Source of the DNA: Armatimonadota bacterium
GTDB lineage: Bacteria; Sysuimicrobiota; Sysuimicrobiia; Sysuimicrobiales; Humicultoraceae
Direction of reading: 5' to 3'
Length of the DNA stretch: 13,447 bases
NCBI GenBank assembly: GCA_037443365.1
Contig: JBBIOM010000043.1
Coordinates: 1-13,447, forward strand
The position numbers and the translations under genes are program-made. Under the pieces are notes generated by a model, which did not search any database, was not told the DNA's origin, and saw only the letters and a list, made by a program, of their open reading frames with translations. Each line of letters begins with the position of its first letter. The stretch's first letter is position 1. Of the stretch, positions 1,971 through 13,316 are shown one piece after another.

Positions 1971-3431
1971 CTACTTCTTGAGAATCGCGGCCACATACCT
2001 GGCCGGTTGGGTCAGGTGCTCGGCCGCGGTCGAGGTGAGCGAGTACAGGACCTGCGCCCGCAGCCCGACGGCGATCGTGATGAGGGCAAGCGCGGCAGCA
2101 GGCACGACCAACCGAGCCGGCGCGCGCCGCGGCTCCCCCGGTCCCCAGAAGGCGGTCGCGTAGATCTTCAGCATGGACATCAGCGTCAGGATGCTGACGA
2201 TGACGCTTACGGCCACCACGCCGTACTCGCGCGCCTCCAGCCCGGCGCGTATGAGCAGCAGCTTGGCGAAGAAGCCGGAGAACGGCGGGACCCCTGCCAG
2301 CGACAGCGCGCACACCACGAAGACCAGCGCGAGTGTGCCGTTCGTGCGGGCCAGGCCTCCGAGCCGATCCAGCCGGTCCGTGCGCTGCGTCTCCTCGATG
2401 GCGCCGCCGACCAGGAGCAGGCCGGACTTCACGACGATGTGGTGCAGGACATAGAAGATTCCGCCGGCGATCCCTAGCTGGCTGGCCAGCGCCAGGCCCA
2501 TGATCATGTACCCCACCTGGCTGATGATGTGGAACGAGAGGATCCGCCGTATGCTGTCCTGGGCCAGGGCGCCCAGGACTCCGAACAGCATCGTGGCCGA
2601 CGCCGACCACAGCAGCAGCGGGTCCGGCCCGCTGCTTGGGAAGACGATCGTGAACACCCGGAACAGCGAGTAGACGCCCACCTTGGTGAGCATCCCGCCG
2701 AAGAACGCCGCCAGGCCTCCGGGCGGTATGGCATAGGCGTGGGGCAGCCAGAAGTAGAAGGGGAAGATCGCCGCCTTGGTTCCGAAGGCCACCAGCAGCA
2801 TCATGGCGCCGGCGCGCACGGTGGCGGCGGGCGCCAGCGGCACCCGCTCCACCAGGTGGGCCATGTTCAGCGTGCCTGTGGCCGAATAGATGAGCGCGAC
2901 CCCGAAAAGGAAGAACATCGAGGCCACAAGGTTGATCGCGACGTAGCCGAACGCCTCGCGGGCCTGCCGCTGTGTGGTGCCGTGCGTCAGCAGGAAGTAG
3001 GACGAGATCAGCATGACCTCGTAGGCCACGTACAGGTTGAACAGGTCGCCGGTCAGAAAGGCCCAGTTGATGCCGCTGAGAAGGAACTGCCAGCCGGCGT
3101 GCACGAAGCGATCGTCGCGGCCCGCCGCGATCGTGAAGGCGAGCCCCACCAGGCCGATCAGCGACGCGATCAGCACCATCAGCGCACCCAGCATGTCGGC
3201 CACCAGGGTGATGCCGTAGGGCGCGGCCCACCCCCCTGCCTGTATGGGCATCACCTCCCCGCCGCGGGTGAGCAGAACCAGCGCGATGCTGGCCGCCAGC
3301 GTCGCGATGCCCCCGGCTATCCCAAGGGTGCGCTGCGCACGGCGCGATTGCCAGACGATCAGCAGTATCGCCGCCAGCATCGGCACGATGATCGGGAGTA
3401 CGGGCAGCGCCGCGATCAAACTAGCGGTCAT
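1971..3431 (-). CDS. mrpD: Mrp antiporter subunit D, 486 aa
   Basis: FLTGDLFNLYVAYEVMLISSY, KAAIFPFYFWLP, LTKVGVY, HHIVVK and GVPPFSGFFAK motifs of the NuoM/N-like antiporter fold. Confidence 0.96.
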   Translation of the reverse strand: MTASLIAALPVLPIIVPMLAAILLIVWQSRRAQRTLGIAGGIATLAASIALVLLTRGGEVMPIQAGGWAAPYGITLVADMLGALMVLIASLIGLVGLAFTIAAGRDDRFVHAGWQFLLSGINWAFLTGDLFNLYVAYEVMLISSYFLLTHGTTQRQAREAFGYVAINLVASMFFLFGVALIYSATGTLNMAHLVERVPLAPAATVRAGAMMLLVAFGTKAAIFPFYFWLPHAYAIPPGGLAAFFGGMLTKVGVYSLFRVFTIVFPSSGPDPLLLWSASATMLFGVLGALAQDSIRRILSFHIISQVGYMIMGLALASQLGIAGGIFYVLHHIVVKSGLLLVGGAIEETQRTDRLDRLGGLARTNGTLALVFVVCALSLAGVPPFSGFFAKLLLIRAGLEAREYGVVAVSVIVSILTLMSMLKIYATAFWGPGEPRRAPARLVVPAAALALITIAVGLRAQVLYSLTSTAAEHLTQPARYVAAILKK

Positions 3432-3741
3432 CGCCCTTCTCCCCGCCGCCGAAGAGGTGCATCCGGTATCCCAGCGCCAGTAGGAACGCGGTCACGCCGA
3501 ACGAAATCACGATCGCCGTCAGGATGAGGGCCTGAGGCAGCGGGTCGGTCATGGGACCCCGTCCGGCGCCGATCACCGGCACCCCGCCGCGCAGCCCGGC
3601 CGAAAGCAGGATGGTAATGTGAGCCGCGTGGGAGAGCAGGGAGAGGCCGATGATCTGGCGCAGCAGCGACCTCCCAAGGAGCAGGAAGAACCCCGTGGCC
3701 ACCAGGACGCCGACCAGCAGCGCAACCAGAGGCGCCATCAT
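3421..3741 (-). CDS. mrpC: Mrp antiporter subunit C, 106 aa (start corrected from the ORF track's 3954; 3738 is an alternative ATG)
   Basis: DPLPQALILTAIVISFGVTAF signature; ATG at 3741 forms an ATGA overlap with the mrpA stop; 3' end overlaps mrpD by 11 nt. Confidence 0.94.
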   Translation of the reverse strand: MMAPLVALLVGVLVATGFFLLLGRSLLRQIIGLSLLSHAAHITILLSAGLRGGVPVIGAGRGPMTDPLPQALILTAIVISFGVTAFLLALGYRMHLFGGGEKGDDR

Positions 3742-6488
3742 TCCCCCCCCGCGGCTTCCACCAGCGAGCGCATCGCCGCGAGCACCGCGCCCGTCACCAG
3801 CAGCATCACCCCGAGGTCGAAGAACAGCGAAGAGGGCAGCCGGTGCCCCGCGACCACGAGCAGCGTGTGCTGCAGCAGCGGCTTTCCCGCCACAAGGGGG
3901 ATGGCGGAAGAACCGGCGGCCAGCGCCAGCCCGGCGGCCATCAGGATGTCCCAACGTCGCGCCAGCAGGGCGGCGCCGAATGCCTCCGAGCGCAGAACGA
4001 CCGCGGCGGAGATCATCAGGCCGGCCACAAACCCGCCGCCCGGTCCGTAGTGGCCGGTCGCCAGCAGGAGTAGCGCGTAGGCCACGATCACCGGGGAGAC
4101 GGCGCGCGCGATCGTCCGCAGGATCAGCGTGGTGAACGGCCCGCCCTCCCGCGCCTCACCCCGCTTCCGGCGCTCCGCGCCCGACCCGGCACGACGCCAC
4201 GGCGCCAGGGAGACGATCCCGAGCGCGGCGATGGCCAGCACGCTGATCTCGCCCATCGTGTCCCATCCGCGGAAGTCCACGATGATCAGGTTCACGAGGT
4301 TCTTGCCGCCGGCCTGGGCGGCGTGCGTGAAGAACTCACCCGAGATGCGCTGAAGGGCGGAGGGGGCGGCCACCATCGCCGCCATCACGGCGCCGGCCCC
4401 GCCCGCGGCGGTCGCCGCCAGCCAGTCCGTTGCCGGGCGTGCAGGGGGATGTGCGAGGTCGCTCTTGCCGAGCGCCGATATCGCCACGAGGAACAGCACG
4501 AGCGACACCGTCTCGATCACCGCCTGAGTGATGGCGATGTCCGGCGCGCTGAGCAGCAGGTAGATCAGGCTGACAGAGTACCCCGCAGCCCCCAGCGCCA
4601 GCACCGCCCCCAGCAGCAGCCGCATGCGCACGGCGGCCACCGCCGCGGTCATCGCGACGAGCACGGTGATGGTCGGCCCCAATTCCATCTCGCCCGGCAG
4701 GAGACTCGCCGCGATCCCGGTCCGGGCGAACCCGAAGGCCACAAGCGCGACGGCCGTTCCCGTGATGTAGATGAGGTAGTCGCGCAATCGGCCGGTGAGG
4801 TACAGCCCTGTCAGGACCTTGGCCCCGCCGAGCGTGGCGGCATACGCGCGGTCATATAGCCGCCCGGCGCTCATCCACCGCAGGCGCGTCTCCAGCTGGG
4901 CTGCCAGGGGATGCAGCCTGAAGAGCAGCCATCCACCGCCCACGGCGGTGGTCAATGCCACCACCGCGACAAGCGTCGGACCGTGCCAGAGCGCCACACG
5001 CTGCGGCGCCCCGGTGATCGCCGCCGCCGCGAGGCCTGCCAGGCGCTCTACCGCGCCGGGGGCCAGCCCGAAGGCAAGCGCCACGACCGCCAGGACGCCG
5101 GCCGGCGCGTACAGCAGCGCCGGGGGCTCGTGCACGCTCTCCGGCGGCGGAGGCGCGTCTGCGCGGGCCTTTGCGCGACGCGGCTGCGGAGGGCCCCCCA
5201 GGAAGATCCACATGTACCGTGCCCCATACGCCAGCGAGAGCGCTCCCGAGAGGATCACCGCGCCGGTCGCGGCCCAGGGGCCGTGCAGGAAGGCTTCCAC
5301 CGCCGCTTCCTTGCTGAGGAACCCTCCGAAGGGAGGCAGCCCGGCCATCGAGAACGCGGCCAGCGCCGCGACGCCGAACGTGAGCGGCATCCCCCGGCGC
5401 AGTCCTCCCAGGCGGTCAATCACGCGCGTGCCGGTCTCGTGCTCGACGGCGCCCGCGACCAGGAAGAGCGCCCCCTTGAACGCGGCGTGGTTGAGCACGA
5501 AGACCATGGCCGCCCCCACCGCTGCGGGTGTGCCCCATCCCAGCAGCGCGGTGGCCAGCCCCAGCGCGCCCACGGTGGAGTAGGCGAGCAGGCCCTTCAG
5601 GTCGGTAGCCACCAGCGCAAGTGACCCGCCCACGAGCAGCGTCGCCAGGCCGGCGGGCGTGACCGCGGCCACCCACAGGGCCGTGCCGCCGAGTACGGGC
5701 AGCAGGCGCGCCAGCAGGTACACCCCGGCCCATACCATCGTGGCGGCGTGCAGGTAGGTCGAGACCGGCGTGGGAGCCACCATCGCCGAGGGCAGCCAGA
5801 ACTGGAACGGCACCTGCGCGGACTTGGTGAATGCTCCGGTCAGCACGAGCGCCAGGATGACCGGGTAGGCGGGATCCGCCTTGATCGCTGCGGCCCTGGT
5901 CAGCAGCGCGCTTATCTGCCAGGTTCCTCCGGCCTGCGCCAGCATCACCAGGCCGACCAGCAGCGCCACGCCGCCGGCCACGGTGACGACGAGCGCCGTG
6001 GTTGCGCCGGCGCGCGCGTCGGGGTCCTCGTTCCTGTATCCGATCAGGAAGAACGAGGCCAGGCTGGTCAGCTCCCAGAAGACGTAGAGGACGACGAGGT
6101 CATCCGCGAGCACTACCCCGAGCATCGCGCCCATGAAGATCAGCATGTGGGCGTAGAACCGGCCCAGCTCCTGGCCCGCGTGCATGTACGCGACCGAGTA
6201 GACGAAGACCAGCACCCCGACGGCCAGGATCAGCCCTGCGAAGAGCAGCGCCAGGCCGTCCAGCGCCAGCGCGTACCGCAGTCCTACATCAGGGAACCAG
6301 TCCAGCGACAGCCGAGGCGTCTGCCCGCTCCACGTTGGCGCCGCGAGCGCGGCGAGCGCCGCCAGCAGGCCTGCTGTGACCGCGGCGCTGATCCAGCCCG
6401 GATGGGCCCGGAGCCGGTTGGCAATCGGGCCGGCAAGCGGGGCTGCCAGGATGGCGATCAGTGGGAGAGCGCCGAGCAGGAAGGGCAC
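3738..6488 (-). CDS. mrpA: Mrp antiporter subunit A fused to B (group-2 MrpA'), 916 aa
   Basis: FWELTSLASFFLIG, TKSAQVPFQFWLPSAMVAPTPVS, DLKGLLAYST, GFLSKE, APDIAITQ, NLVNLIIVDFRGWDTMGE, and the C-terminal MrpB motif GHYGPGGGFVAGL. No separate mrpB gene in the operon. Confidence 0.96.
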   Translation of the reverse strand: MPFLLGALPLIAILAAPLAGPIANRLRAHPGWISAAVTAGLLAALAALAAPTWSGQTPRLSLDWFPDVGLRYALALDGLALLFAGLILAVGVLVFVYSVAYMHAGQELGRFYAHMLIFMGAMLGVVLADDLVVLYVFWELTSLASFFLIGYRNEDPDARAGATTALVVTVAGGVALLVGLVMLAQAGGTWQISALLTRAAAIKADPAYPVILALVLTGAFTKSAQVPFQFWLPSAMVAPTPVSTYLHAATMVWAGVYLLARLLPVLGGTALWVAAVTPAGLATLLVGGSLALVATDLKGLLAYSTVGALGLATALLGWGTPAAVGAAMVFVLNHAAFKGALFLVAGAVEHETGTRVIDRLGGLRRGMPLTFGVAALAAFSMAGLPPFGGFLSKEAAVEAFLHGPWAATGAVILSGALSLAYGARYMWIFLGGPPQPRRAKARADAPPPPESVHEPPALLYAPAGVLAVVALAFGLAPGAVERLAGLAAAAITGAPQRVALWHGPTLVAVVALTTAVGGGWLLFRLHPLAAQLETRLRWMSAGRLYDRAYAATLGGAKVLTGLYLTGRLRDYLIYITGTAVALVAFGFARTGIAASLLPGEMELGPTITVLVAMTAAVAAVRMRLLLGAVLALGAAGYSVSLIYLLLSAPDIAITQAVIETVSLVLFLVAISALGKSDLAHPPARPATDWLAATAAGGAGAVMAAMVAAPSALQRISGEFFTHAAQAGGKNLVNLIIVDFRGWDTMGEISVLAIAALGIVSLAPWRRAGSGAERRKRGEAREGGPFTTLILRTIARAVSPVIVAYALLLLATGHYGPGGGFVAGLMISAAVVLRSEAFGAALLARRWDILMAAGLALAAGSSAIPLVAGKPLLQHTLLVVAGHRLPSSLFFDLGVMLLVTGAVLAAMRSLVEAAGGE

Positions 6489-6535
6489 CTGGCGCCTACC
6501 GAATCCAAGATACCTTGAATCTCGTTCTTACCTGG

Positions 6536-6568
6536 ACCACGCGACTTAAGGTACAAGAGCCGCGTGGT
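6536..6568. repeat. Inverted repeat in the divergent intergenic region (possible operator)
   Basis: ACCACGCG (6536-6543) and CGCGTGGT (6561-6568) are perfect 8-bp arms 17 nt apart; they extend to 11 bp with one mismatch. Confidence 0.6.
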
Positions 6569-6576
6569 GCGGTCAA
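6548..6576 (-). promoter_or_regulatory. Candidate sigma70-type promoter of the mrp operon
   Basis: Minus strand reads TTGACC (6576-6571), 17-nt spacer, TACCTT (6553-6548): 5/6 match at -35 and TAnnnT at -10, ending 59 nt upstream of the mrpA GTG. Confidence 0.6.
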
Positions 6577-6597
6577 GCCGACAGAAAGGGGTTCGCC

Positions 6598-7959
6598 ATC
6601 CGCGTAACCTTCCACGGGGCCGCCCGCACCGTCACCGGCTCGCTCCACCTGGTCGAGGCAGGCGACACGTGGGTCTACCTTGACTGCGGCCTCTTCCAGG
6701 GGCACCGCGCCGAGGCGCTTGAGTGGAACCGGTGCTTCCCTTCCAGCCCACGCGACCTCGACGCGGTCATCCTCTCGCACGCGCACCTTGATCACTGCGG
6801 CAACCTGCCCACGCTGGTGGCTCAGGGGTTTCGCGGCCCGATCTACTGCACGCCGGCCACCCGCGACCTGGCCGCGCTGGTGCTGCGGGACAGCGCGAAG
6901 GTGCAGCGGCAGGATGCGCGGGTCGTGAACCAGCACCACCGGCGCCAGGGACTGCCCGCGGTGGAGCCGCTCTATGACGCCCGCGCCGCAGAGAGGGCGA
7001 TCGCCCGCCTGGCGGCCGTGCCCTATCGGCGGCCGTTTCGCGTTGGCTCCCTGACCGCCACCTTCCACGACGCGGGGCACATCCTGGGGTCGGCGATGGT
7101 GCTGCTCGAAGCGGACGATTGCCGCATGGGCTTCACCGGCGACCTGGGCCGCCCCGGGACCGCCATCGTGCGCGACCCCGAAGTGCTTCCAGCGGTGGAT
7201 CTCCTGCTCATCGAGTCCACCTACGGCGACCGGGAGCACGCCCCGCGCGCCGAGGCTGAGGCGCACCTGGCTGCCGTTGTGCGTGAGACCGTCGGCCGCG
7301 GCGGAAGGGTGCTGATCCCGTCCTTCGCGATCGGTCGGGTACAGGAGGTCGCGTACACCCTGCACCGCCAGAGGGAAGAAGGCCTCGTCCCGGCGGTCCC
7401 CTTCTATGTGGACAGCCCGATGGCGACCGACGCCACAAGGATCTTTCGCGCGCACCCCGAGTGCTTCGACGAGGAGATCCTGGCGCACCTGAGGCGGCAC
7501 GATCCCTTCGGGTTTGGCGCTATGCGCTACGTGCGCACCCCTGCCGAGTCCAGGGCGCTGCGCGCCTCGAAAGAGCCGTGCGTCATCATCGCTACCTCCG
7601 GGATGGCGGAGGCAGGCCGCATCCTGCCGCACCTGCGCGACCGCATCGGCGACCCGCGGTCCACGCTTCTGTTCGTGGGATACCAGGCCGAGCACACGCT
7701 GGGCCGCCGACTGTCCGACGGTGCGCCGGAGGCCAGGATCTACGGTGAGCCGCACAAGGTGGCGATCCGGATCGAGCGGGCCGACGCGTTCAGCGCGCAC
7801 GCCGACCGGAACGAGCTGCTCGCATGGGCGGCGCGCGTGCCACGGATCGGCCGCGCGTTCTGCGTGCATGGCGACGAGGCCGCGGCAGAGGCCCTGGCGG
7901 GTGCGCTGACCTCGGCCGGGATCCCCTCCGAGGTGCCGGTGGAGGGGCAGACTGTCTAG
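6598..7959 (+). CDS. MBL-fold metallo-hydrolase, beta-CASP family RNase (CPSF73/Ysh1-like bacterial group), 453 aa, ATC start
   Basis: In frame from 6598: (M)RVTFHGAARTVTGS, DCGLFQG, SHAHLDHCG (HxHxDH at 6778-6795), AGHILGSA, FTGDLG, ESTYG, DSPMA, SGMAEAGRI, FSAHAD, VHGDE. AAAGGGG lies 6 nt before the ATC. The ORF-track start (6817) cuts off the catalytic motif. Confidence 0.92.
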   Translation: MRVTFHGAARTVTGSLHLVEAGDTWVYLDCGLFQGHRAEALEWNRCFPSSPRDLDAVILSHAHLDHCGNLPTLVAQGFRGPIYCTPATRDLAALVLRDSAKVQRQDARVVNQHHRRQGLPAVEPLYDARAAERAIARLAAVPYRRPFRVGSLTATFHDAGHILGSAMVLLEADDCRMGFTGDLGRPGTAIVRDPEVLPAVDLLLIESTYGDREHAPRAEAEAHLAAVVRETVGRGGRVLIPSFAIGRVQEVAYTLHRQREEGLVPAVPFYVDSPMATDATRIFRAHPECFDEEILAHLRRHDPFGFGAMRYVRTPAESRALRASKEPCVIIATSGMAEAGRILPHLRDRIGDPRSTLLFVGYQAEHTLGRRLSDGAPEARIYGEPHKVAIRIERADAFSAHADRNELLAWAARVPRIGRAFCVHGDEAAAEALAGALTSAGIPSEVPVEGQTV

Positions 7960-8021
7960 GAGGGCGAGGGGCTTTCCGCGCGCCGCGCTTCGACGCCGGG
8001 CTGCCGGCGCGCTACGGTGAG

Positions 8022-8591
8022 CTACGCCAGCACGATCTTGCCGTCGCTCATGTCGGTGACGACGGCCAGCGCCACGATCGGCACGCCCAGCGGCGCCAGC
8101 AACGCGCGACCCCCTTCCACGACCTTCTCGATGACCGCGCCGATGCCCACGACCGACGATCCCGCGGCCTGGGCCAGGCGCACCAGGCCCAGGATGGTCT
8201 GGCCGGTCGCCAGGAAGTCGTCCACGATCAGCACCCGCTCGCCGTGCGCCAGGTACTCGGGCGAGACGATCAGCTCGATCGTGTGACCCTTCGTGTGCGA
8301 AGGGGCCAGGGTCAGGAAGACCTGGTAGGGCATCGTCACCGGCCGCGTCTTGCGGGCGTAGACCACCGGCACTCCCAGGTGCATGGCCGTTGTGAACGCC
8401 GGGGCTATGCCCGAGATCTCCGCGGTGAGCACCTTCGTGGCCCCCACGCCAGCGAACCGGGCCGCCAGCTCGCGCCCGCACTCGCCCAGCAACGCGGGAT
8501 CCACTTGGTGGTTGAGGAAGCTGTCCACCTTGAGGATGCCGTTGCCCAGGTTGCGGCCCTCACGCAGTATCCGTTCCTTGAGCGCGTCCAT
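8022..8591 (-). CDS. xpt: Xanthine phosphoribosyltransferase, 189 aa
   Basis: ILKVDSFLNHQVDP N-terminal signature, TAEISGIAPA, PRPP-binding VLIVDDFLATG and VIEK; length typical of Bacillus-type Xpt. Confidence 0.95.
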   Translation of the reverse strand: MDALKERILREGRNLGNGILKVDSFLNHQVDPALLGECGRELAARFAGVGATKVLTAEISGIAPAFTTAMHLGVPVVYARKTRPVTMPYQVFLTLAPSHTKGHTIELIVSPEYLAHGERVLIVDDFLATGQTILGLVRLAQAAGSSVVGIGAVIEKVVEGGRALLAPLGVPIVALAVVTDMSDGKIVLA

Positions 8592-8654
8592 CCTGCCCCC
8601 CTATCCGCAGGGCCGCCAGCGTCATTGAGTCGGGCGCGACAGCACCCCCCGGCA

Positions 8655-10223
8655 CTACGGGGCGACGTACTCGACTATCAGCCGCGGGCGGTTGGCCAGG
8701 ACGTCCTCCCCGTGCCCGAAGTAGACCAGGTTGGCGCCCCCTTCCATGTTGCGTATCAGCAACCCGTAGTTCGGCAGAGTTCCGGCGACCCATGCCCTGA
8801 CTATCTCAGTCACGTCCCACTCGACGGAGATGCGCGTGGCGCCTCCCGCTATCGTCACGGGACCGGCAGGCCTCAGCACCGCGTAGCTACCGGCCAGCAG
8901 GTTCCAGGTAGCATCCGCCTCGGTCCAGGGCCGCGTGACAGGAAAGACCGTGTACAGATCGGCGCCGCCGGACCTGTATCCGTACAGGAACAGGCGCAGC
9001 GTGGCCCGGCGCACGGTCGCGCCGGGAGGAAGGGCGATGCTGAAGCTCACCACCGAGCGGTACCTGCCCGTGGCGTCGCGCCCAACGAAGAGGGCCTCGG
9101 TTGGGTGCGGAGCCGCCGGCGCCGCCTCGACGAGCGGCGCGTCGGTGCGGCTCCTGAACTCCTGTGTCCGGACCGTCGGAGCACCTGTCGGCGTGGCCGC
9201 CGGCGTGGGGGTCGCGGCCAGCGGGCTGATCACGGCCAGCTCCCAGGCCTCGTTGGAGGACGGGTTCATCCGCACGGTGATCTCGTCTCCGCGCCGCACG
9301 CGCGCCGGCGCGTCACCGAGCGGGACCGGCGCGCCGTTGATCGTCACCACGGCGTCATGGTTGATGCGTACGACCTGCCCGTCCTGCAGCGCGATCGCGG
9401 TCGGGGTCAGCACGTCCACGCGCCCACGCACCTGCCGGAACGAGGCCCTGACACTCGCCGCGTCGTTAGAGGTGCCCACGGCCTCGACCCGCACCTGGTC
9501 GCCGATGCGCAGCGCCGCCAACGCCGCGGATCCGCCCGCACCCGTGCCCGCGTCGAATCTCAGAATCGCCGTCTCAGGAGTGATGGTGAAGATGTAGATG
9601 ACCGCGCCCACGCTGACGTGGATGCGCGGCGGGGTCGCGGCGGTGACGACGGCAACCAGCACTCCATCGGTGACCCTTGGGGACGGCGTGATGATTGGGG
9701 TCGGGGTAGGGGCGGGAGTCGGCGCCGGCGTCACGACCGCTGTTGGCGTCGGGAGCGGCGTGGGCCGGGGCTGCTGATAGCCCGGAGGAGCCGGCTCGGC
9801 CGTCGGGAGCGTGATGAGCACGGTCCGCGTGGCCGCCTGCCACTGCACGTAGGCGCCCAGTGCCTCGCTCACGAAGCGCAGCGGCACCATGGTGCGGCCC
9901 CCGACGGACATGGGCGGGGTGTCCAGGATAACCATCTTGCCGTCTACGGCCGCCTCTCGACGCCCCATGACCAGCTCGATCTTCCGGGTGGCCGTGGTGG
10001 CGGTGATGCGCTGCGCGGCCGGCTCCCACAGGACGGTGGCGCCCAGGCGCTCGAAGACGCCTCGTAGGGGTACCAGCAGCCGCCCGCCCACCTCGACGGG
10101 CGGGACATCGAAGGCGAGTTCCTCGCCGTTGACGATGACCCGGATCGCCCCCTGGCCGGCCACCGGGACGAGGTTGAGGCCCAGCACGCAGAGCAGCAGG
10201 CCTGCTACGAAGGCTGGACGCAT
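8655..10223 (-). CDS. Secreted/cell-surface modular protein: signal peptide, copper amine oxidase N-terminal (stalk) domain, Pro/Thr linker, two beta-rich repeats, linker, DNRLRE (CBM96-like) domain; 522 aa
   Basis: ATG at 10223 is preceded by AAGGAG and GAGGG. Hydrophobic N-terminus. Duplicated stalk motifs GRLLVPLRGVFERLGATVLW and GRTMVPLRFVSEALGAYVQW. C-terminal WTEADATWN, WDVTEIVRAWV, NYGLLI and RPRLIVEY match DNRLRE-type domains. Confidence 0.85.
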   Translation of the reverse strand: MRPAFVAGLLLCVLGLNLVPVAGQGAIRVIVNGEELAFDVPPVEVGGRLLVPLRGVFERLGATVLWEPAAQRITATTATRKIELVMGRREAAVDGKMVILDTPPMSVGGRTMVPLRFVSEALGAYVQWQAATRTVLITLPTAEPAPPGYQQPRPTPLPTPTAVVTPAPTPAPTPTPIITPSPRVTDGVLVAVVTAATPPRIHVSVGAVIYIFTITPETAILRFDAGTGAGGSAALAALRIGDQVRVEAVGTSNDAASVRASFRQVRGRVDVLTPTAIALQDGQVVRINHDAVVTINGAPVPLGDAPARVRRGDEITVRMNPSSNEAWELAVISPLAATPTPAATPTGAPTVRTQEFRSRTDAPLVEAAPAAPHPTEALFVGRDATGRYRSVVSFSIALPPGATVRRATLRLFLYGYRSGGADLYTVFPVTRPWTEADATWNLLAGSYAVLRPAGPVTIAGGATRISVEWDVTEIVRAWVAGTLPNYGLLIRNMEGGANLVYFGHGEDVLANRPRLIVEYVAP

Positions 10224-10273
10224 CTTTCCCTCAGCTCCTTTCCCTGGCACCCCGCTTTGAGAGTTGATGCCCT

Positions 10274-10330: not shown

Positions 10331-10357
10331 GCAGGAGCGATTGGCAGGGGGTCGAAG
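10331..10357 (+). promoter_or_regulatory. Candidate SigH-like promoter (GCAGGA-N17-GAAG) for mscL
   Basis: GCAGGA (10331-10336), 17 nt, GAAG (10354-10357), ending 44 nt before the mscL start. Confidence 0.4.
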
Positions 10358-10401
10358 CAGGCACCGATGGGCTTGGCAACCTAATGGTGGAGGTGGGCCG
10401 C

Positions 10402-10830
10402 GTGCTTCGGGAGTTCAGGGAGTTCGCCGTGAAGGGCAGCATGCTCGACCTTGCCATCGGATTCATCATGGGCGCGGCCTTTGGGTCGGTCGTGAACTCG
10501 CTGGTCAACGACATCATCATGCCGCCGATCGGTGCACTGCTCGGCAAGGTGGACTTTGGCAGCCTGTTCCTCAACCTGTCGGGCCAGGCCTATCCCGGTT
10601 TGAAGGCGGCGCGGGAAGCCGGCGCGCCCGTGATCGCCTACGGAGCCTTCCTCAGCGCCGTCGTGAGCTTCCTGATCGTGGCCCTCGTGGCCTTCCAGGT
10701 TGTCAAGGTGGCCAACCGTCTCAGGCGCGAGGCGCCCGCCGCCCCGCCCACAACCAAGGATTGTCCGTACTGCGGGACGAGCATTCCGATCGTGGCGACG
10801 CGTTGCCCGCACTGCACGTCGCAGCTGTGA
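10402..10830 (+). CDS. mscL: Large-conductance mechanosensitive channel with C-terminal zinc ribbon, 142 aa
   Basis: (M)[43 protein letters not shown] and [18 protein letters not shown] at 10402 follows GGAGGTG (10389-10395). C-terminal CPYC-x10-CPHC. Confidence 0.96.
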
Positions 10831-10831
10831 C

Positions 10832-10854
10832 CCGGCAGCCCCGTGGGTTGCCGG
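10832..10854 (+). other. Intergenic stem-loop directly after the mscL stop
   Basis: CCGGCAGCCC-CGT-GGGTTGCCGG: 10-bp stem with one G-U pair; no U-tract follows. Confidence 0.6.
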
Positions 10855-10880
10855 TAGATCCGTCAGTCGGAGGTTTGATC

Positions 10881-13316
10881 ATGCCAGCGGCGGATTTCGA
10901 GAGACTGGGCATCTTCTACATTGGGCGCGCGTACGATGCCGAACAGGCGAAGCCCCGGGATGAACTGATACTGTACGATGCGAAGGACCTGGTTACCCAC
11001 GCGGTATGCTTGGGCATGACCGGGAGCGGCAAGACTGGGTTGTGCATCACGCTTCTCGAAGAAGCCGCGCTCGACGGCGTGCCCGCGATCGCCATTGACC
11101 CCAAGGGCGACCTTACCAACCTGCTGCTGACGTTTCCGGAACTACGGCCCGAGGACTTCCTGCCATGGGTGAACGAAGACGACGCGCGGCAGAAGGGTCT
11201 CTCGGTCGAGGAGTATGCCCGCCAGCAGGCCGAGATGTGGGCGAGCGGCCTGGCCGCGTGGGGACAGGACGGCGCGCGCATCCGCCGGATGCGCGAGGCA
11301 GCCGAGTTCACCGTCTACACGCCGGGCAGCACTGCCGGAATGCCGGTGTCCATCCTCAGTTCGTTTGCGGCGCCACCTGCGCCGATTCGTCAGGACCGGG
11401 AACTGCTGGGCGATCGCGTCAGCATCACCGCCACCAGTCTGCTAGGCCTGGTAGGTATCGAGGCCGACCCCGTTGTCAGCCGCGAGCACATCCTGCTCTC
11501 GACGATCCTGGACGCCGCCTGGCAGGCCGGAGAGGACCTCGATCTCGCATCACTCATCCAGCACGTACAGACACCACCCGTGTCCAGGGTTGGGGTCATC
11601 GATCTGGAGACGTTCTATCCCTCGACAGAGCGCTTTGCGCTGGCCCTGCGCCTGAACAACCTCCTGGCCGCTCCGGGGTTCTCGAACTGGATGGTGGGGG
11701 AGCCCATGGATGTCGAACGGCTCCTCTACAACGACCGGGGCAAACCGCGCGTGTCGGTCTTCTCGATCGCGCACCTATCCGACGCCGAGCGCATGTTCTT
11801 CGTTGCCTTGCTGCTGAACCAGGTGCTCGGGTGGATGCGCGGGCAGTCCGGCACCACGAGCCTGCGCGCGATCCTATACATGGACGAGATATTCGGCTTC
11901 TTTCCCCCGGTGGCGAACCCGCCGGCAAAGCGACCGCTGCTCACCCTACTCAAGCAGGGGCGGGCCTTTGGCCTGGGCGTGGTGCTGGCCACCCAGAACC
12001 CCGTAGATCTCGACTACAAGGGTCTCTCGAACGCCGGCACCTGGTTCCTGGGGCGCTTGCAGACCGAGCGCGACAAGGCCCGTGTGCTCGATGGGCTGGA
12101 GGGGGTCTCGGCCGCATCCGGCGAGGGCTTCGACCGCGGCGGCATTGACAGGTTGCTCTCACGCCTGGGCAGGCGGGTCTTTCTTCTGCACAACGTTCAC
12201 AGGGCTACCCCGGATGTCTTCGAGACGCGCTGGGCGATGTCGTACCTGCGGGGGCCGCTTACGCGCGACCAGATCAAGCGCCTGGTTGATCCGACGCGAG
12301 CGGCCGGAGTGGATGCTGCTCCCGTGTCGGCGGCAGTGCCCGCGGCGGCTCCGTCCGTCCCCCTGCCAACCGTTGCCGCTCCAGCCGCCGTGCCCGCGGC
12401 TGCACCCACGCGCCCTGTGCTGCCACCCGGTATCCCGCAGTACTTCGCGCCGGCTGCGGCCGCGCCCGAGGGCGGCCAGGTCCGCTACGAGCCCATGCTG
12501 CTGGGCGCGGCGCAGGTGTTACTCCACGACGCGAAGGCAGGCGTTGACGCGAGGCGCGACGTGGTCGTGCTGGTGCCCTTTACCACCGGCGTGGTGGCCG
12601 TGGACTGGGCCGCGGCAAGAGACGCAGGATTCGGCGCCACGGATCTGCAGGCCTCCCCGGCGCAGCCCGGTCTGTTTGGGGGGCTGCCACCGGCCGCAAC
12701 CAGGCCCAAGAGCTACGAGGCCTGGAGCAAGGAGTTCGCTGGCTGGCTGTTGCAGGAGCAGCAGATTGAGATCTTCCGGCATCCTGGCTCAGGCCTGCTA
12801 TCACAGGCCAGCGAGTCTGAGCGCGATTTCCGCATACGGCTGCAGGGTGCGATGCGCGAACGACGCGACCAGGCCGTGGAGCGCTGGCGTCAGAAGTACG
12901 GCCAGAGGGTGACCACGCTGACCGAGCGCCTGCGCCGCGCCCAGGAGGCCGTCGAGCGGGAGAAGCAGCAGGCGCAGCAGCAGCAGGTTCAGACGGCGGT
13001 ATCGGTCGGCGCAACGATTCTGGACGCGTTCATGGGACGCAGGGCGATCCGCAGCGGTACCATCGGGCGCGCGACTACCGCAGCGCGCGGCGCGAGCCGG
13101 TCCTACAAGGAAGCGCAGGACGTGAAGCGGGCGCAGGAGACCGCAGAGGCGCTCCAACAGCAACTGGATGCCCTGGAAGCAAAGATTCGCAGCGAGATCG
13201 AGACGGCTGTCGCGGCGTCCGACCCGGCCACCGATCCGCTTGAGAAGGTGGTGGTGAAGCCCAAGCGCACCGGCGTGACGGTGCGCGCCGTAGGGATCGC
13301 CTGGATACCCGGCTAG
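10881..13316 (+). CDS. HerA/FtsK-superfamily (DUF87/DUF853-like) P-loop ATPase with C-terminal coiled coil, 811 aa
   Basis: ATG at 10881 follows GGAGGT (10869-10874). HAVCLGMTGSGKT Walker A (11013-11036), IDPKGD, ILYMDE Walker B (11871-11888), KQGRAFG arginine finger and LATQNP. Then a Pro/Ala linker and a Q/E/R-rich helical tail. Confidence 0.9.
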   Translation: MPAADFERLGIFYIGRAYDAEQAKPRDELILYDAKDLVTHAVCLGMTGSGKTGLCITLLEEAALDGVPAIAIDPKGDLTNLLLTFPELRPEDFLPWVNEDDARQKGLSVEEYARQQAEMWASGLAAWGQDGARIRRMREAAEFTVYTPGSTAGMPVSILSSFAAPPAPIRQDRELLGDRVSITATSLLGLVGIEADPVVSREHILLSTILDAAWQAGEDLDLASLIQHVQTPPVSRVGVIDLETFYPSTERFALALRLNNLLAAPGFSNWMVGEPMDVERLLYNDRGKPRVSVFSIAHLSDAERMFFVALLLNQVLGWMRGQSGTTSLRAILYMDEIFGFFPPVANPPAKRPLLTLLKQGRAFGLGVVLATQNPVDLDYKGLSNAGTWFLGRLQTERDKARVLDGLEGVSAASGEGFDRGGIDRLLSRLGRRVFLLHNVHRATPDVFETRWAMSYLRGPLTRDQIKRLVDPTRAAGVDAAPVSAAVPAAAPSVPLPTVAAPAAVPAAAPTRPVLPPGIPQYFAPAAAAPEGGQVRYEPMLLGAAQVLLHDAKAGVDARRDVVVLVPFTTGVVAVDWAAARDAGFGATDLQASPAQPGLFGGLPPAATRPKSYEAWSKEFAGWLLQEQQIEIFRHPGSGLLSQASESERDFRIRLQGAMRERRDQAVERWRQKYGQRVTTLTERLRRAQEAVEREKQQAQQQQVQTAVSVGATILDAFMGRRAIRSGTIGRATTAARGASRSYKEAQDVKRAQETAEALQQQLDALEAKIRSEIETAVAASDPATDPLEKVVVKPKRTGVTVRAVGIAWIPG

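What the first reader, a model, noticed from the sequence alone, without database searches (positions are those of the whole stretch)
6547..6819. beta-CASP nuclease apparently initiates at a non-canonical ATC codon
Seen: an in-frame TAA at 6547-6549, then no in-frame ATG/GTG/TTG until 6817, which is downstream of the HxHxDH motif (6778-6795). ATC (6598-6600) sits exactly where the family's Met is expected (M-R-V-T-F-H-G-A-A-R-T-V-T-G-S), 6 nt after AAAGGGG. Known: AUU/AUC-type starts are rare, are discriminated against by IF3, and limit expression (E. coli infC and pcnB use AUU). Inference: deliberate low or IF3-coupled expression of an RNase. Alternatives are a recent ATG-to-ATC mutation or a base-call error. 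Gene callers would truncate this gene.
Basis: partly seen in the sequence, partly recalled or inferred. Interest (0 to 1): 0.7.

Follow-up and report, generated by a model that had tools for sequence, protein, structure and literature searches.

The report
RNase gene that starts at ATC
A ribonuclease gene in an uncultured bacterium really does begin at the rare start codon ATC, a feature kept across several related genera that probably holds the enzyme at a low level and makes standard gene finders cut off its catalytic site.

Summary
After TAA 6547-6549 the frame has no ATG/GTG/TTG until GTG 6817 (codon 74), downstream of HxHxDH (6778-6795). ATC 6598-6600 lies 6 nt behind AAAGGGG. The ORF 6598-7959 encodes a 453-aa stand-alone beta-CASP nuclease, closest to Thermus RNase TTHA0252, whose Met1 aligns with this ATC.

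ATC is not an error. Contigs of two samples carry it. It recurs in 3 congeneric genomes, one 90%-identical metagenome contig and 3 species of two other genera; a fourth has ATT. In G010 a TGA five codons upstream excludes any other start. Codons 2-73 are under purifying selection like the rest of the gene. All 11 weak-start orthologues carry a good Shine-Dalgarno. Outside this clade, none of 151 assessable family members lacked a canonical start, bar one apparent frameshift.

The lineage uses AUC elsewhere: infC has ATC in 27 of 29 genomes of the order, and a TctA-like gene has it in 6 of 6 congeners. A genome-wide scan flagged only that gene and this one.

The database call for this gene is the truncated 380-aa form. 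Low, IF3-sensitive expression is a reasonable inference but untested. This is a new member of a known kind, of moderate interest.

The parts
6489..6597 (+). Intergenic leader and promoter region between the divergent MrpA-like gene and the beta-CASP gene. It is not coding.
   Evidence: The upstream gene on the minus strand starts at 6488. The five genus-g1 sequences differ here by a 2-nt indel, so the region cannot be in frame. Pairwise identity of the last 66 nt is 55/66 to 64/66. There is no sigma-70 consensus and no Rfam hit.
6547..6549 (+). In-frame TAA that closes the frame 17 codons upstream of ATC.
6585..6591 (+). Shine-Dalgarno AAAGGGG, 6 nt upstream of ATC.
   Evidence: The duplex with the genome's own 16S 3' end motif (found on contig C40) is -8.1 kcal/mol.
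6598..6600 (+). ATC, the proposed initiation codon.
   Evidence: It aligns with Met1 of TTHA0252 (query 2-438 against chain 2-414) and with the M/V start of orthologues. ATC is conserved in G004, G006, G002, L137, G010, G020 and G044, with ATT in G043.
6598..7959 (+). Beta-CASP nuclease CDS, 453 aa, with the stop at 7957-7959.
   Evidence: Pfam Lactamase_B, Beta-Casp (1e-37) and RMMBL. TTHA0252 E 2.5e-84. GC1/2/3 of 0.74/0.52/0.87 is typical of real genes here.
6778..6795 (+). HxHxDH metal-binding motif (H61 A H L D H66), upstream of the first canonical start.
   Evidence: H61, H63, D65 and H66 are invariant in 28 aligned relatives.
6817..6819 (+). GTG, the first in-frame canonical start. This is where the public gene call begins, giving a 380-aa product without the MBL motifs.
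   Evidence: P0004 (380 aa, 100% identity, only RMMBL and Beta-Casp Pfam hits).
3738..6488 (-). Divergent neighbour, a fused MrpA/MnhB-type antiporter subunit (916 aa). It shows that the beta-CASP gene has no upstream gene on its own strand.
   Evidence: Pfam Proton_antipo_M, MnhB, MbhD and MbhE.

Best explanation
The 453-aa beta-CASP ribonuclease gene is translated from AUC 6598-6600. A 30S subunit is positioned there by the Shine-Dalgarno AAAGGGG six bases upstream, and the initiator tRNA pairs with a third-position mismatch. Shown here: no canonical codon can supply the conserved N-terminus and catalytic HxHxDH motif. The ATC, or ATT, is kept at that position in a clade spanning three genera. 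The N-terminal 73 codons are under protein-level purifying selection. Every weak-start orthologue has a well-placed SD. The lineage uses AUC for infC and a TctA-like gene. Inferred from established knowledge: AUC initiates at roughly 1-3% of AUG in E. coli and is discriminated against by IF3. The gene is therefore probably expressed at a low level that rises when IF3 is limiting. It would share this dependence with infC, which uses the same codon in this order. A weak start is a plausible way to hold down a 5'-3' exo/endoribonuclease that acts broadly on mRNA. The confidence given is for ATC being the start codon; that the weak start is selected for low or IF3-coupled output I hold at about 0.4.
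For: In the window: TAA at -17 codons, no canonical start until codon 74, and SD plus 6 nt plus ATC.
Reads: a contig of run X1 (depth 40, possibly the source) covers 6450-6900 with 0 differences. A contig of another sample, X2, covers 6450-6732 with 0 differences.
Orthologues in the order: 45 had an assessable N-terminus. Of the 17 in family f1, 8 have ATC or ATT at the aligned position with no adjacent canonical start: G000, G004, G006, G002, G010, G020, G044 (ATC) and G043 (ATT). In G010 a TGA lies 5 codons upstream and there is no canonical codon in the next 80 codons. In G043 a stop lies at -31 and the first canonical codon is at +8. A 90%-identical metagenome contig, L137, also has ATC.
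Selection: dN/dS for codons 2-73 is 0.10-0.31 against 0.17-0.31 for the rest, in 10 pairs of 5 g1 sequences. A 2-nt indel lies just upstream of the SD.
SD strength: the median duplex is -8.0 kcal/mol for 11 weak-start orthologues and -3.1 for 34 canonical ones.
Family-wide controls: 77 of 79 and 73 of 74 assessable loci have a canonical start near the aligned N-terminus. The three exceptions are G010 itself, the g1-like L137 and an apparent frameshift in L063.
Lineage use of AUC: infC has ATC in 27 of 29 genomes, 13 of them with an in-frame stop 2-10 codons upstream. A TctA-like gene has ATC in 6 of 6 congeners with a stop 5-6 codons upstream.
Literature: an ATC start of Deinococcus dnaA was shown by N-terminal proteomics (PMC2830850, passages read). 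AUC initiates at 1-2% (0.1-3%) of AUG in E. coli (10.1101/063800, passages read).
Against: There is no direct evidence of the protein's N-terminus or of expression; no RNA run is on record for this DNA. In G004 and G002 an in-frame GTG lies 9 codons upstream of ATC and could serve there. Within genus g1, synonymous divergence is only 0.1-0.5, so retention of the C within that genus alone is weak evidence. The gene was found in only 17 of 33 other genomes of the family, and one copy (G020) carries an internal TGA. The gene is therefore dispensable, and a weak start could be tolerated rather than selected. IF3 dependence is extrapolated from E. coli and Streptomyces. The initiator tRNA was not found in this incomplete assembly.
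Confidence: 0.85

Rival explanations
1. ATC is the start codon but has no regulatory meaning. An ATG-to-ATC change was fixed by drift in a dispensable, low-demand gene, was partly compensated by a strong SD, and simply persists.
For: The gene was found in only 17 of 33 other family genomes, and G020's copy has an internal TGA. The Thermus homologue TTHA0252 is non-essential (PMC4229858, passages read). Start codons flip within the clade between ATC, ATT and GTG. Isolated CTG-type starts occur in G054 and G080.
Against: A single C-to-G change would restore ATG, yet ATC or ATT is kept in 8 of 11 assessable members of a clade whose proteins are only 68-73% identical. dN/dS of about 0.2 shows that the protein matters.
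Confidence: 0.3
2. Translation starts at another codon: the GTG 9 codons upstream seen in some relatives, the near-cognate AAG 6586, or a downstream codon such as CTG 6649 or GTG 6817.
For: G004 and G002 have an in-frame GTG at -9. Public gene calls use ATG at codon 18 in relatives (P0003) and GTG 6817 here.
Against: In G000 the GTGs at 6564 and 6567 are out of frame because of a 2-nt indel, and G006 and L137 lack them. AAG lies inside the SD and is absent from G004 and G002. Downstream starts would delete residues 1-17 or 1-73. Those residues are invariant or nearly so in 28 relatives, including F5, G7, V12-H17 and HxHxDH, and they are under purifying selection. G010 offers no alternative at all.
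Confidence: 0.05
3. Artefact or dead gene: a sequencing or assembly error at 6600, or a pseudogene that lost its start.
For: The genome is a 69-contig metagenome-type assembly. Real indel artefacts do occur in relatives: G068 has an extra G in a G-run, and L063 shows an apparent frameshift.
Against: The sequence is identical in contigs of two samples. ATC is found in seven further species or contigs and ATT in an eighth. The full-length frame is open in all five g1 sequences with a complete copy, and dN/dS is about 0.2.
Confidence: 0.02
4. Programmed frameshift or coupling from the out-of-frame GTG GTG at 6564-6569 into the gene's frame.
For: Two GTGs lie 30 nt upstream in another frame, which stays open to a TGA near 6682 (own reading).
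Against: The GTGs are absent from G006 and L137 (tggtcc, tggttc). There is no slippery motif that I could see, and no upstream gene lies on this strand.
Confidence: 0.01

Closest known systems
Thermus thermophilus TTHA0252 (PDB 2DKF and others), a stand-alone bacterial beta-CASP RNase
   Same: Same architecture of MBL, beta-CASP and RMMBL domains and similar length (453 against 431 aa). E 2.5e-84, and the alignment runs from residue 2 to residue 2, so the N-termini coincide. TTHA0252 has 5'-3' exo-RNase and probably endo-RNase activity, is non-essential and affects about 200 mRNAs (PMC4229858, passages read).
   Different: No non-canonical start is reported for TTHA0252 in the passages I read. 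The activity of the window's protein is untested.
ATC-initiated dnaA of Deinococcus (D. deserti, D. geothermalis, D. radiodurans)
   Same: An ATC start codon is conserved among related species, was missed by annotation, and was proposed as a basis for regulation (PMC2830850, abstract and passages read).
   Different: That case has N-terminal peptide proof and this one does not. The gene is a different one (replication initiator against RNase), and here the codon spans three genera of an uncultured lineage.
IF3-discriminated weak starts: E. coli infC (AUU), pcnB (AUU) and Streptomyces sigR (GUC)
   Same: A weak near-cognate start behind an SD sets low output that depends on IF3. pcnB is, like this gene, an RNA-metabolism enzyme. 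infC of this order uses the very same ATC.
   Different: IF3 dependence is experimentally shown for those genes (PMC2830850 passages on infC and pcnB; PMC5472188 abstract only). Here it is inferred.
Cas14 (type VII CRISPR) and archaeal aCPSF1 beta-CASP nucleases
   Same: These are the best NCBIfam matches, at 404.5 and 319.5 bits, with PDB hits 8YHD and 2XR1.
   Different: Both scores are far below the family cut-offs of 800 and 580.2. The match covers only profile positions 1-432 of 612 of Cas14 and 175-613 of 631 of aCPSF1, so the extra parts of both are missing, and there is no CRISPR context in the window.

Membership tests
beta-CASP nucleases (MBL superfamily) | Pfam Lactamase_B, Beta-Casp and RMMBL domains above the gathering scores | tested here: met
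   Beta-Casp 129.8 bits (cut-off 27.7), RMMBL 47.7 (21.6), Lactamase_B 42.7 (22.7).
beta-CASP nucleases (MBL superfamily) | Metal-binding motifs: HxHxDH, the later H and D of the MBL fold, and beta-CASP motifs A (acidic), B (H) and C (H). Motif names are recalled. | tested here: met
   H61, H63, D65, H66, H161, D182, E206, H401 and H424 are present in P0001 and invariant in 28 aligned relatives. Assigning these residues to the named motifs is my own reading.
TTHA0252-type stand-alone bacterial beta-CASP RNase | Full-length similarity with no extra KH, C-terminal RNase J or Cas14 domains | tested here: met
   E 2.5e-84 over query 2-438 and chain 2-414 of 431. There are no further Pfam domains.
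TTHA0252-type stand-alone bacterial beta-CASP RNase | 5'-3' exo- and endo-ribonuclease activity | not testable with these tools
   This needs an enzyme assay.
RNase J | A match to TIGR00649 or RnjA and the RNase J C-terminal domain | tested here: not met
   No RNase J model appears among P0001's NCBIfam hits.
Cas14 (type VII CRISPR) | NF045584 above its cut-off, and CRISPR-cas context | tested here: not met
   404.5 bits against a cut-off of 800, with only profile positions 1-432 of 612 matched. The neighbours are Mrp antiporter, PRTase and other unrelated genes.
Genes with a genuine non-AUG (AUC/AUU) initiation codon | No in-frame canonical codon can encode the conserved N-terminus | tested here: met
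   Stop at -17 codons and first canonical start at codon 74. The same holds in G010 (stop at -5).
Genes with a genuine non-AUG (AUC/AUU) initiation codon | A ribosome-binding site at working distance | tested here: met
   AAAGGGG plus 6 nt, -8.1 kcal/mol against the genome's 16S tail. All 11 weak-start orthologues score -6.6 to -12.7.
Genes with a genuine non-AUG (AUC/AUU) initiation codon | The codon is conserved in orthologues while the protein stays under selection | tested here: met
Genes with a genuine non-AUG (AUC/AUU) initiation codon | Direct evidence of the N-terminus (proteomics or ribosome profiling) | not testable with these tools
   The lineage is uncultured and no RNA run is listed.
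IF3-regulated weak-start genes (infC/pcnB type) | Expression changes with IF3 level | not testable with these tools
   The only evidence is circumstantial: infC of 27 of 29 genomes of the order uses ATC.

The most novel reading that the evidence does not exclude
In this order, AUC marks a small IF3-titrated set of genes. These would include infC itself, this mRNA-degrading beta-CASP RNase and possibly the TctA-like transporter. When IF3 becomes limiting (stress, cold, ribosome-assembly trouble), RNase synthesis would rise together with IF3, linking bulk mRNA decay to the cell's capacity for translation initiation. The repeated appearance of ATC, ATT and CTG starts with strong SDs in this one orthologous group would then be convergent selection for that coupling.
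Probability: 0.15. Interest if true: 0.6.

Novelty: new member of a known kind. Interest (0 to 1): 0.4.

Why it matters
Three points. First, annotation. Standard callers give a 380-aa product here, and 436- to 444-aa products in relatives, that lack the N-terminal strand and, here, the catalytic HxHxDH. Fourteen of the 120 best database hits show such truncated N-termini, so this RNase family is systematically mis-described in this lineage. Second, biology. This is a comparatively well-supported natural AUC start outside infC, in an RNA-decay enzyme. It is kept across genera and paired with strong SDs, which makes it a clean natural case for studying how weak start codons set enzyme dosage. 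Third, lineage context. It shows that this uncultured lineage uses AUC for infC throughout the order. Close homologues are labelled Armatimonadota. Earlier notes of this scan file the genome under CSP1-3/Sysuimicrobiota, which I did not check.

Tried and rejected
- No RNA holder is listed for this DNA, so expression could not be examined.
- Only Logan contigs, not raw reads, could be laid. They show presence, not allele frequencies.
- Rfam at gathering thresholds gave 0 hits in the window. The sigma-70 and terminator consensus scans of 6350-8750 found 0 sites.
- The leader 6530-6650 folded as RNA at -42.9 kcal/mol, z -0.34, with 74 of 200 shuffles as good. The SD-containing hairpin of the MFE is not kept in G004, by my own inspection. 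I make no claim of a structured leader.
I used them as family-wide controls rather than as close relatives.
- In the genome-wide scan, 29 ORFs were flagged, and in 26 of them an opposite-strand frame scored at least as well (C38 only marginally). C38:14294 is a repeat-rich shadow. C3:88775 is a DUF47/PHO4 ORF with 65 codons before its first canonical start but no SD-plus-near-cognate site, and I left it unexplained.
- L063 (Planctomycetota) lacks a nearby canonical start but reads as a 1-nt frameshift next to a T/G run, not as a weak start.
- Aragorn found 42 tRNAs. Neither tRNA-Met(CAT) looks like an initiator by its 5' end, and the single tRNA-Ile(GAT) looks ordinary. The idea of a special initiator could therefore not be tested.
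- Paper searches for AUC/ATC start or initiation codon, for non-canonical start codons with IF3, infC and pcnB, for TTHA0252 and beta-CASP, and for non-AUG with ribonuclease and IF3 listed no paper on a non-canonical start in a beta-CASP gene. The CSP1-3 paper PMC11604079 contains no 'start codon' or 'ribonuclease'.
Full report
**1. Observation**

- TAA 6547-6549 is in frame.
- The following 89 codons contain no ATG, GTG or TTG.
- The first canonical codon is GTG 6817-6819, which is codon 74 counted from ATC 6598.
- HAHLDH occupies 6778-6795 (residues 61-66), upstream of that GTG.
- AAAGGGG (6585-6591) is separated from ATC (6598-6600) by six bases.

Canonical start triplets make up 7.1% of coding codons in this genome. 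By my own arithmetic, 73 coding codons without one has a chance of about 0.5%.

**2. What the gene is**

The ORF 6598-7959 (P0001, 453 aa) carries Lactamase_B, Beta-Casp and RMMBL domains.

Its closest solved relative is the Thermus thermophilus RNase TTHA0252, at E 2.5e-84. The alignment runs from residue 2 of the query to residue 2 of the chain, so ATC sits where TTHA0252 has Met1. According to passages of PMC4229858, TTHA0252 is a non-essential 5'-3' exo-RNase (probably also an endo-RNase) whose loss changes about 200 mRNAs.

NCBIfam gives only sub-threshold matches to Cas14 (404.5 bits against a cut-off of 800) and aCPSF1 (319.5 against 580.2), and none to RNase J. The protein is therefore a stand-alone bacterial beta-CASP RNase of the TTHA0252 type.

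The metal ligands and beta-CASP residues H61, H63, D65, H66, H161, D182, E206, H401 and H424 are invariant in 28 relatives.

The gene stands alone on its strand.
- Upstream, a divergent MrpA-like antiporter gene (3738-6488, minus strand) starts 109 nt away.
- Downstream, a phosphoribosyltransferase (8022-8591) and a Cu-amine-oxidase-N/CBM96 protein (8655-10250) converge on it.
- The long ORFs 6496-8481 (minus) and 7824-10067 (plus) have the codon-position GC pattern of shadows.

**3. Not an error, not a pseudogene**

A Logan contig of run X1 (depth 40, possibly the source sample) matches 6450-6900 without a difference. A contig from a second sample of the same study (X2, depth 2.8) matches 6450-6732 without a difference. 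These are contigs, not raw reads.

In the five genus-g1 sequences (G000, G004, G006, G002 and metagenome contig L137) the gene is 453 codons long and open. G005's copy is cut by a contig end. dN/dS is 0.10-0.31 for codons 2-73 and 0.17-0.31 for the rest, over 10 pairs. The N-terminal part that precedes the first canonical codon is therefore translated and constrained.

Just upstream of the SD, the five sequences differ by a 2-nt indel. That excludes coding continuity further upstream.

**4. Orthologues**

I searched 94 genomes of the order and examined every orthologue whose N-terminus was present. That gave 45 loci.

In family f1, 17 loci were assessable; G005 was dropped for the contig edge. 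One ATG row rests on the unpublished genome G024.

| Codon at the aligned start | Genomes | Notes |
|---|---|---|
| ATC | G000, G004, G006, G002 (genus g1), G010 (g4), G020, G044 (g5) | G010 has TGA five codons upstream, no canonical codon in the next 80 codons, and GAGGAGG 7 nt upstream. G004 and G002 also have an in-frame GTG nine codons upstream. In G000 that GTG is out of frame, and it is absent from G006 and L137. G020's copy also has an internal TGA. |
| ATT | G043 (g5) | Stop at -31, first canonical codon at +8, AGGAGG 6 nt upstream. |
| ATG or GTG, at the position or one codon before | the other nine | |

In the other families, 28 loci were assessable.
- 25 have ATG or GTG at the aligned position or one codon before it.
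- G054 has CTG at the position, with its first canonical codon at +15.
- G080 has CTG at -2 behind GGGAGG, or alternatively ACG at -1, with its first canonical codon at +8.
- G068 has an extra G in a G-run, which is a frameshift artefact type.

As family-wide controls I scored two broad samples from many phyla.
- Genome contigs: 77 of 79 assessable loci have a canonical start within -12 to +3 codons of the aligned N-terminus.
- Metagenome contigs: 73 of 74 assessable loci do.
- The three exceptions are G010 itself (L033), the g1-like L137 (ATC again) and L063, which reads as a 1-nt frameshift.

The weak start is therefore a property of this clade, not of the family.

**5. Evolution of the start codon**

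A maximum-likelihood tree of 45 orthologues used rows of at least 300 aa. G049's 202-aa fragment and L137 were left out.

The tree places the g1 sequences as sister to a group made up of G018 (GTG) and the remaining six. Within those six, G010 (ATC) is sister to G016 (GTG), G045 (GTG) and the trio G044 (ATC), G020 (ATC) and G043 (ATT). This 12-row clade has support 99/95. Its outgroups, g7 and g11, have ATG or GTG.

There are two readings.
- The ancestor of the 12-row clade already had ATC. The codon then persisted while the proteins diverged to 68-73% identity, with three changes to GTG and one to ATT.
- Alternatively, ATC arose about three times independently.

Either way the weak codon is stable or recurrent. 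I cannot tell the two scenarios apart.

**6. Shine-Dalgarno**

The genome's 16S gene ends in the usual CACCUCCUU tail (contig C40). Duplex energies of the 17 nt upstream of each start with that tail are as follows.

| Group | n | Range or examples (kcal/mol) | Median |
|---|---|---|---|
| Weak-start orthologues | 11 | -6.6 to -12.7 | -8.0 |
| Canonical-start orthologues | 34 | most lack a recognisable SD | -3.1 |

The isolated CTG cases also exceed their sister sequences. G054 scores -6.6 against -4.9 to -6.0, and G080 scores -10.7 against +0.7 to -3.8.

Relatives are not independent, so this amounts to about three contrasts, all in the same direction. The pattern is what one expects if these codons are real, SD-dependent starts.

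**7. The lineage uses AUC elsewhere, but rarely**

- infC: ATC sits at the aligned start behind GGAGG in 27 of 29 genomes of the order. One has ATA and one was unresolved; a C-terminal fragment from G001 was dropped. Thirteen have an in-frame stop 2-10 codons upstream and no canonical codon between. One ATC row rests on the unpublished genome G015.
- A TctA-like transporter (G000 contig C9, ATC at 3027, minus strand): it has AGGAGG, 7 nt, then ATC, with a stop 5-6 codons upstream. Its Pfam domain begins before the first canonical codon. ATC is kept in 6 of 6 congeners.
- Genome-wide scan of G000: among 1748 ORFs with a gene-like GC pattern, 29 have at least 25 codons of coding signal before the first canonical start. 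In 26 of those an opposite-strand frame scores at least as well.
- A second scan asked for an SD, at least 8 coding codons before the first canonical start, and a winning frame. It found ATC only at this gene and at the TctA-like gene.
- That scan is blind to weak starts that are soon followed by a canonical codon. 'Rare' is therefore a lower-bound statement.

**8. Mechanism**

Shown here: position, SD, conservation, selection on the N-terminal codons, and the lineage's use of AUC.

Inferred from established knowledge:
- AUC gives about 1-2% (0.1-3%) of AUG output in E. coli (10.1101/063800, passages read).
- Near-cognate starts are rejected by IF3, which underlies infC and pcnB control (PMC2830850, passages read) and sigR control in Streptomyces (PMC5472188, abstract only).

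The likely consequence is a low basal level of a broadly acting RNase. That level would rise when IF3 is scarce, in step with infC, which carries the same codon. The main rival is that the weak start is merely tolerated in a dispensable gene; the gene was found in only 17 of 33 other genomes of the family.

**9. Comparison and novelty**

ATC starts are known. The clearest case I read is Deinococcus dnaA, proven by N-terminal proteomics and conserved in three species (PMC2830850). This is a new member of that kind, in a different gene class, in an uncultured lineage, with unusually good comparative support.

My paper searches listed nothing on a non-canonical start in a beta-CASP gene. The CSP1-3 paper PMC11604079 contains no 'start codon'.

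The phylum name is not my finding. Close homologues are labelled Armatimonadota. Earlier notes of this scan call the genome CSP1-3/Sysuimicrobiota, which I did not check.

**10. Practical consequence**

The database holds the window's product as a 380-aa protein without the MBL domain (P0004). Relatives appear as 436-, 443- and 444-aa proteins that start at internal Met or Val. In all, 14 of the 120 best hits have N-termini that begin inside the conserved domain. The DNA of the others could not be fetched.

**Verdict**

The regulatory purpose is plausible but untested. This is a new member of a known kind, of moderate interest.

Noticed in passing
G000 contig C9, about 3027 down to 1483 on the minus strand (locus L217:84-1628:-): A TctA-family transporter gene also starts at ATC: AGGAGG, 7 nt, then ATC, with an in-frame TAG 5-6 codons upstream. 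The Pfam TctA domain begins at residue 19 and the first canonical GTG is at residue 24. ATC is kept in 6 of 6 congeneric genomes. The upstream stop overlaps the SD, which suggests coupling to the preceding gene.
   Followed up: partly
G000 contig C15, about 19945 on the minus strand (L032, L220); loci L220-L248: infC starts at ATC behind GGAGG in 27 of 29 genomes of the order (one ATA, one unresolved). Thirteen of them have a stop 2-10 codons upstream. An ATC-started IF3 would be 170 aa.
   Followed up: yes
L117 (G054) and L129 (G080): Two single-species orthologues in other families have CTG where their sisters have ATG or GTG. G080 could alternatively use ACG. Both have better SDs than their sisters. 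They could be further weak starts or assembly errors.
   Followed up: partly
L127 (G068), L063 (Planctomycetota MAG), L022 (G020): Broken copies of the same gene. G068 has an extra G in a G-run just after ATG. L063 has a 1-nt shift near a T/G run. G020 has an internal TGA at about codon 331. All look like assembly errors or decay, not recoding.
   Followed up: partly
window 6538-6567: A perfect 7-bp inverted repeat, CCACGCG ... CGCGTGG with a 16-nt loop, lies in the leader. It is invariant in all five genus-g1 sequences, so there is no covariation to judge it by. The whole leader does not fold better than shuffles.
   Followed up: partly
window 6496-8481 (minus) and 7824-10067 (plus): ORFs of 661 and 747 aa have the codon-position GC pattern of antisense or out-of-frame shadows of real genes (GC1 about 0.88-0.89, GC3 about 0.65-0.68). 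They are longer than the true genes they overlap and are a trap for length-based gene calling.
   Followed up: yes
G000 contig C3, 88775-89629 (L218:326-1180:+): An ORF with PhoU_div (DUF47) and partial PHO4 matches has 65 codons before its first canonical start and no obvious SD-plus-near-cognate site. It may be a frameshifted or fused gene.
   Followed up: no
window 10341-13316 (plus): A 991-aa ORF has only weak HerA/DUF87 P-loop matches (E 4e-5) and a lower GC3 (0.76) than its neighbours. I did not examine it further.
   Followed up: no
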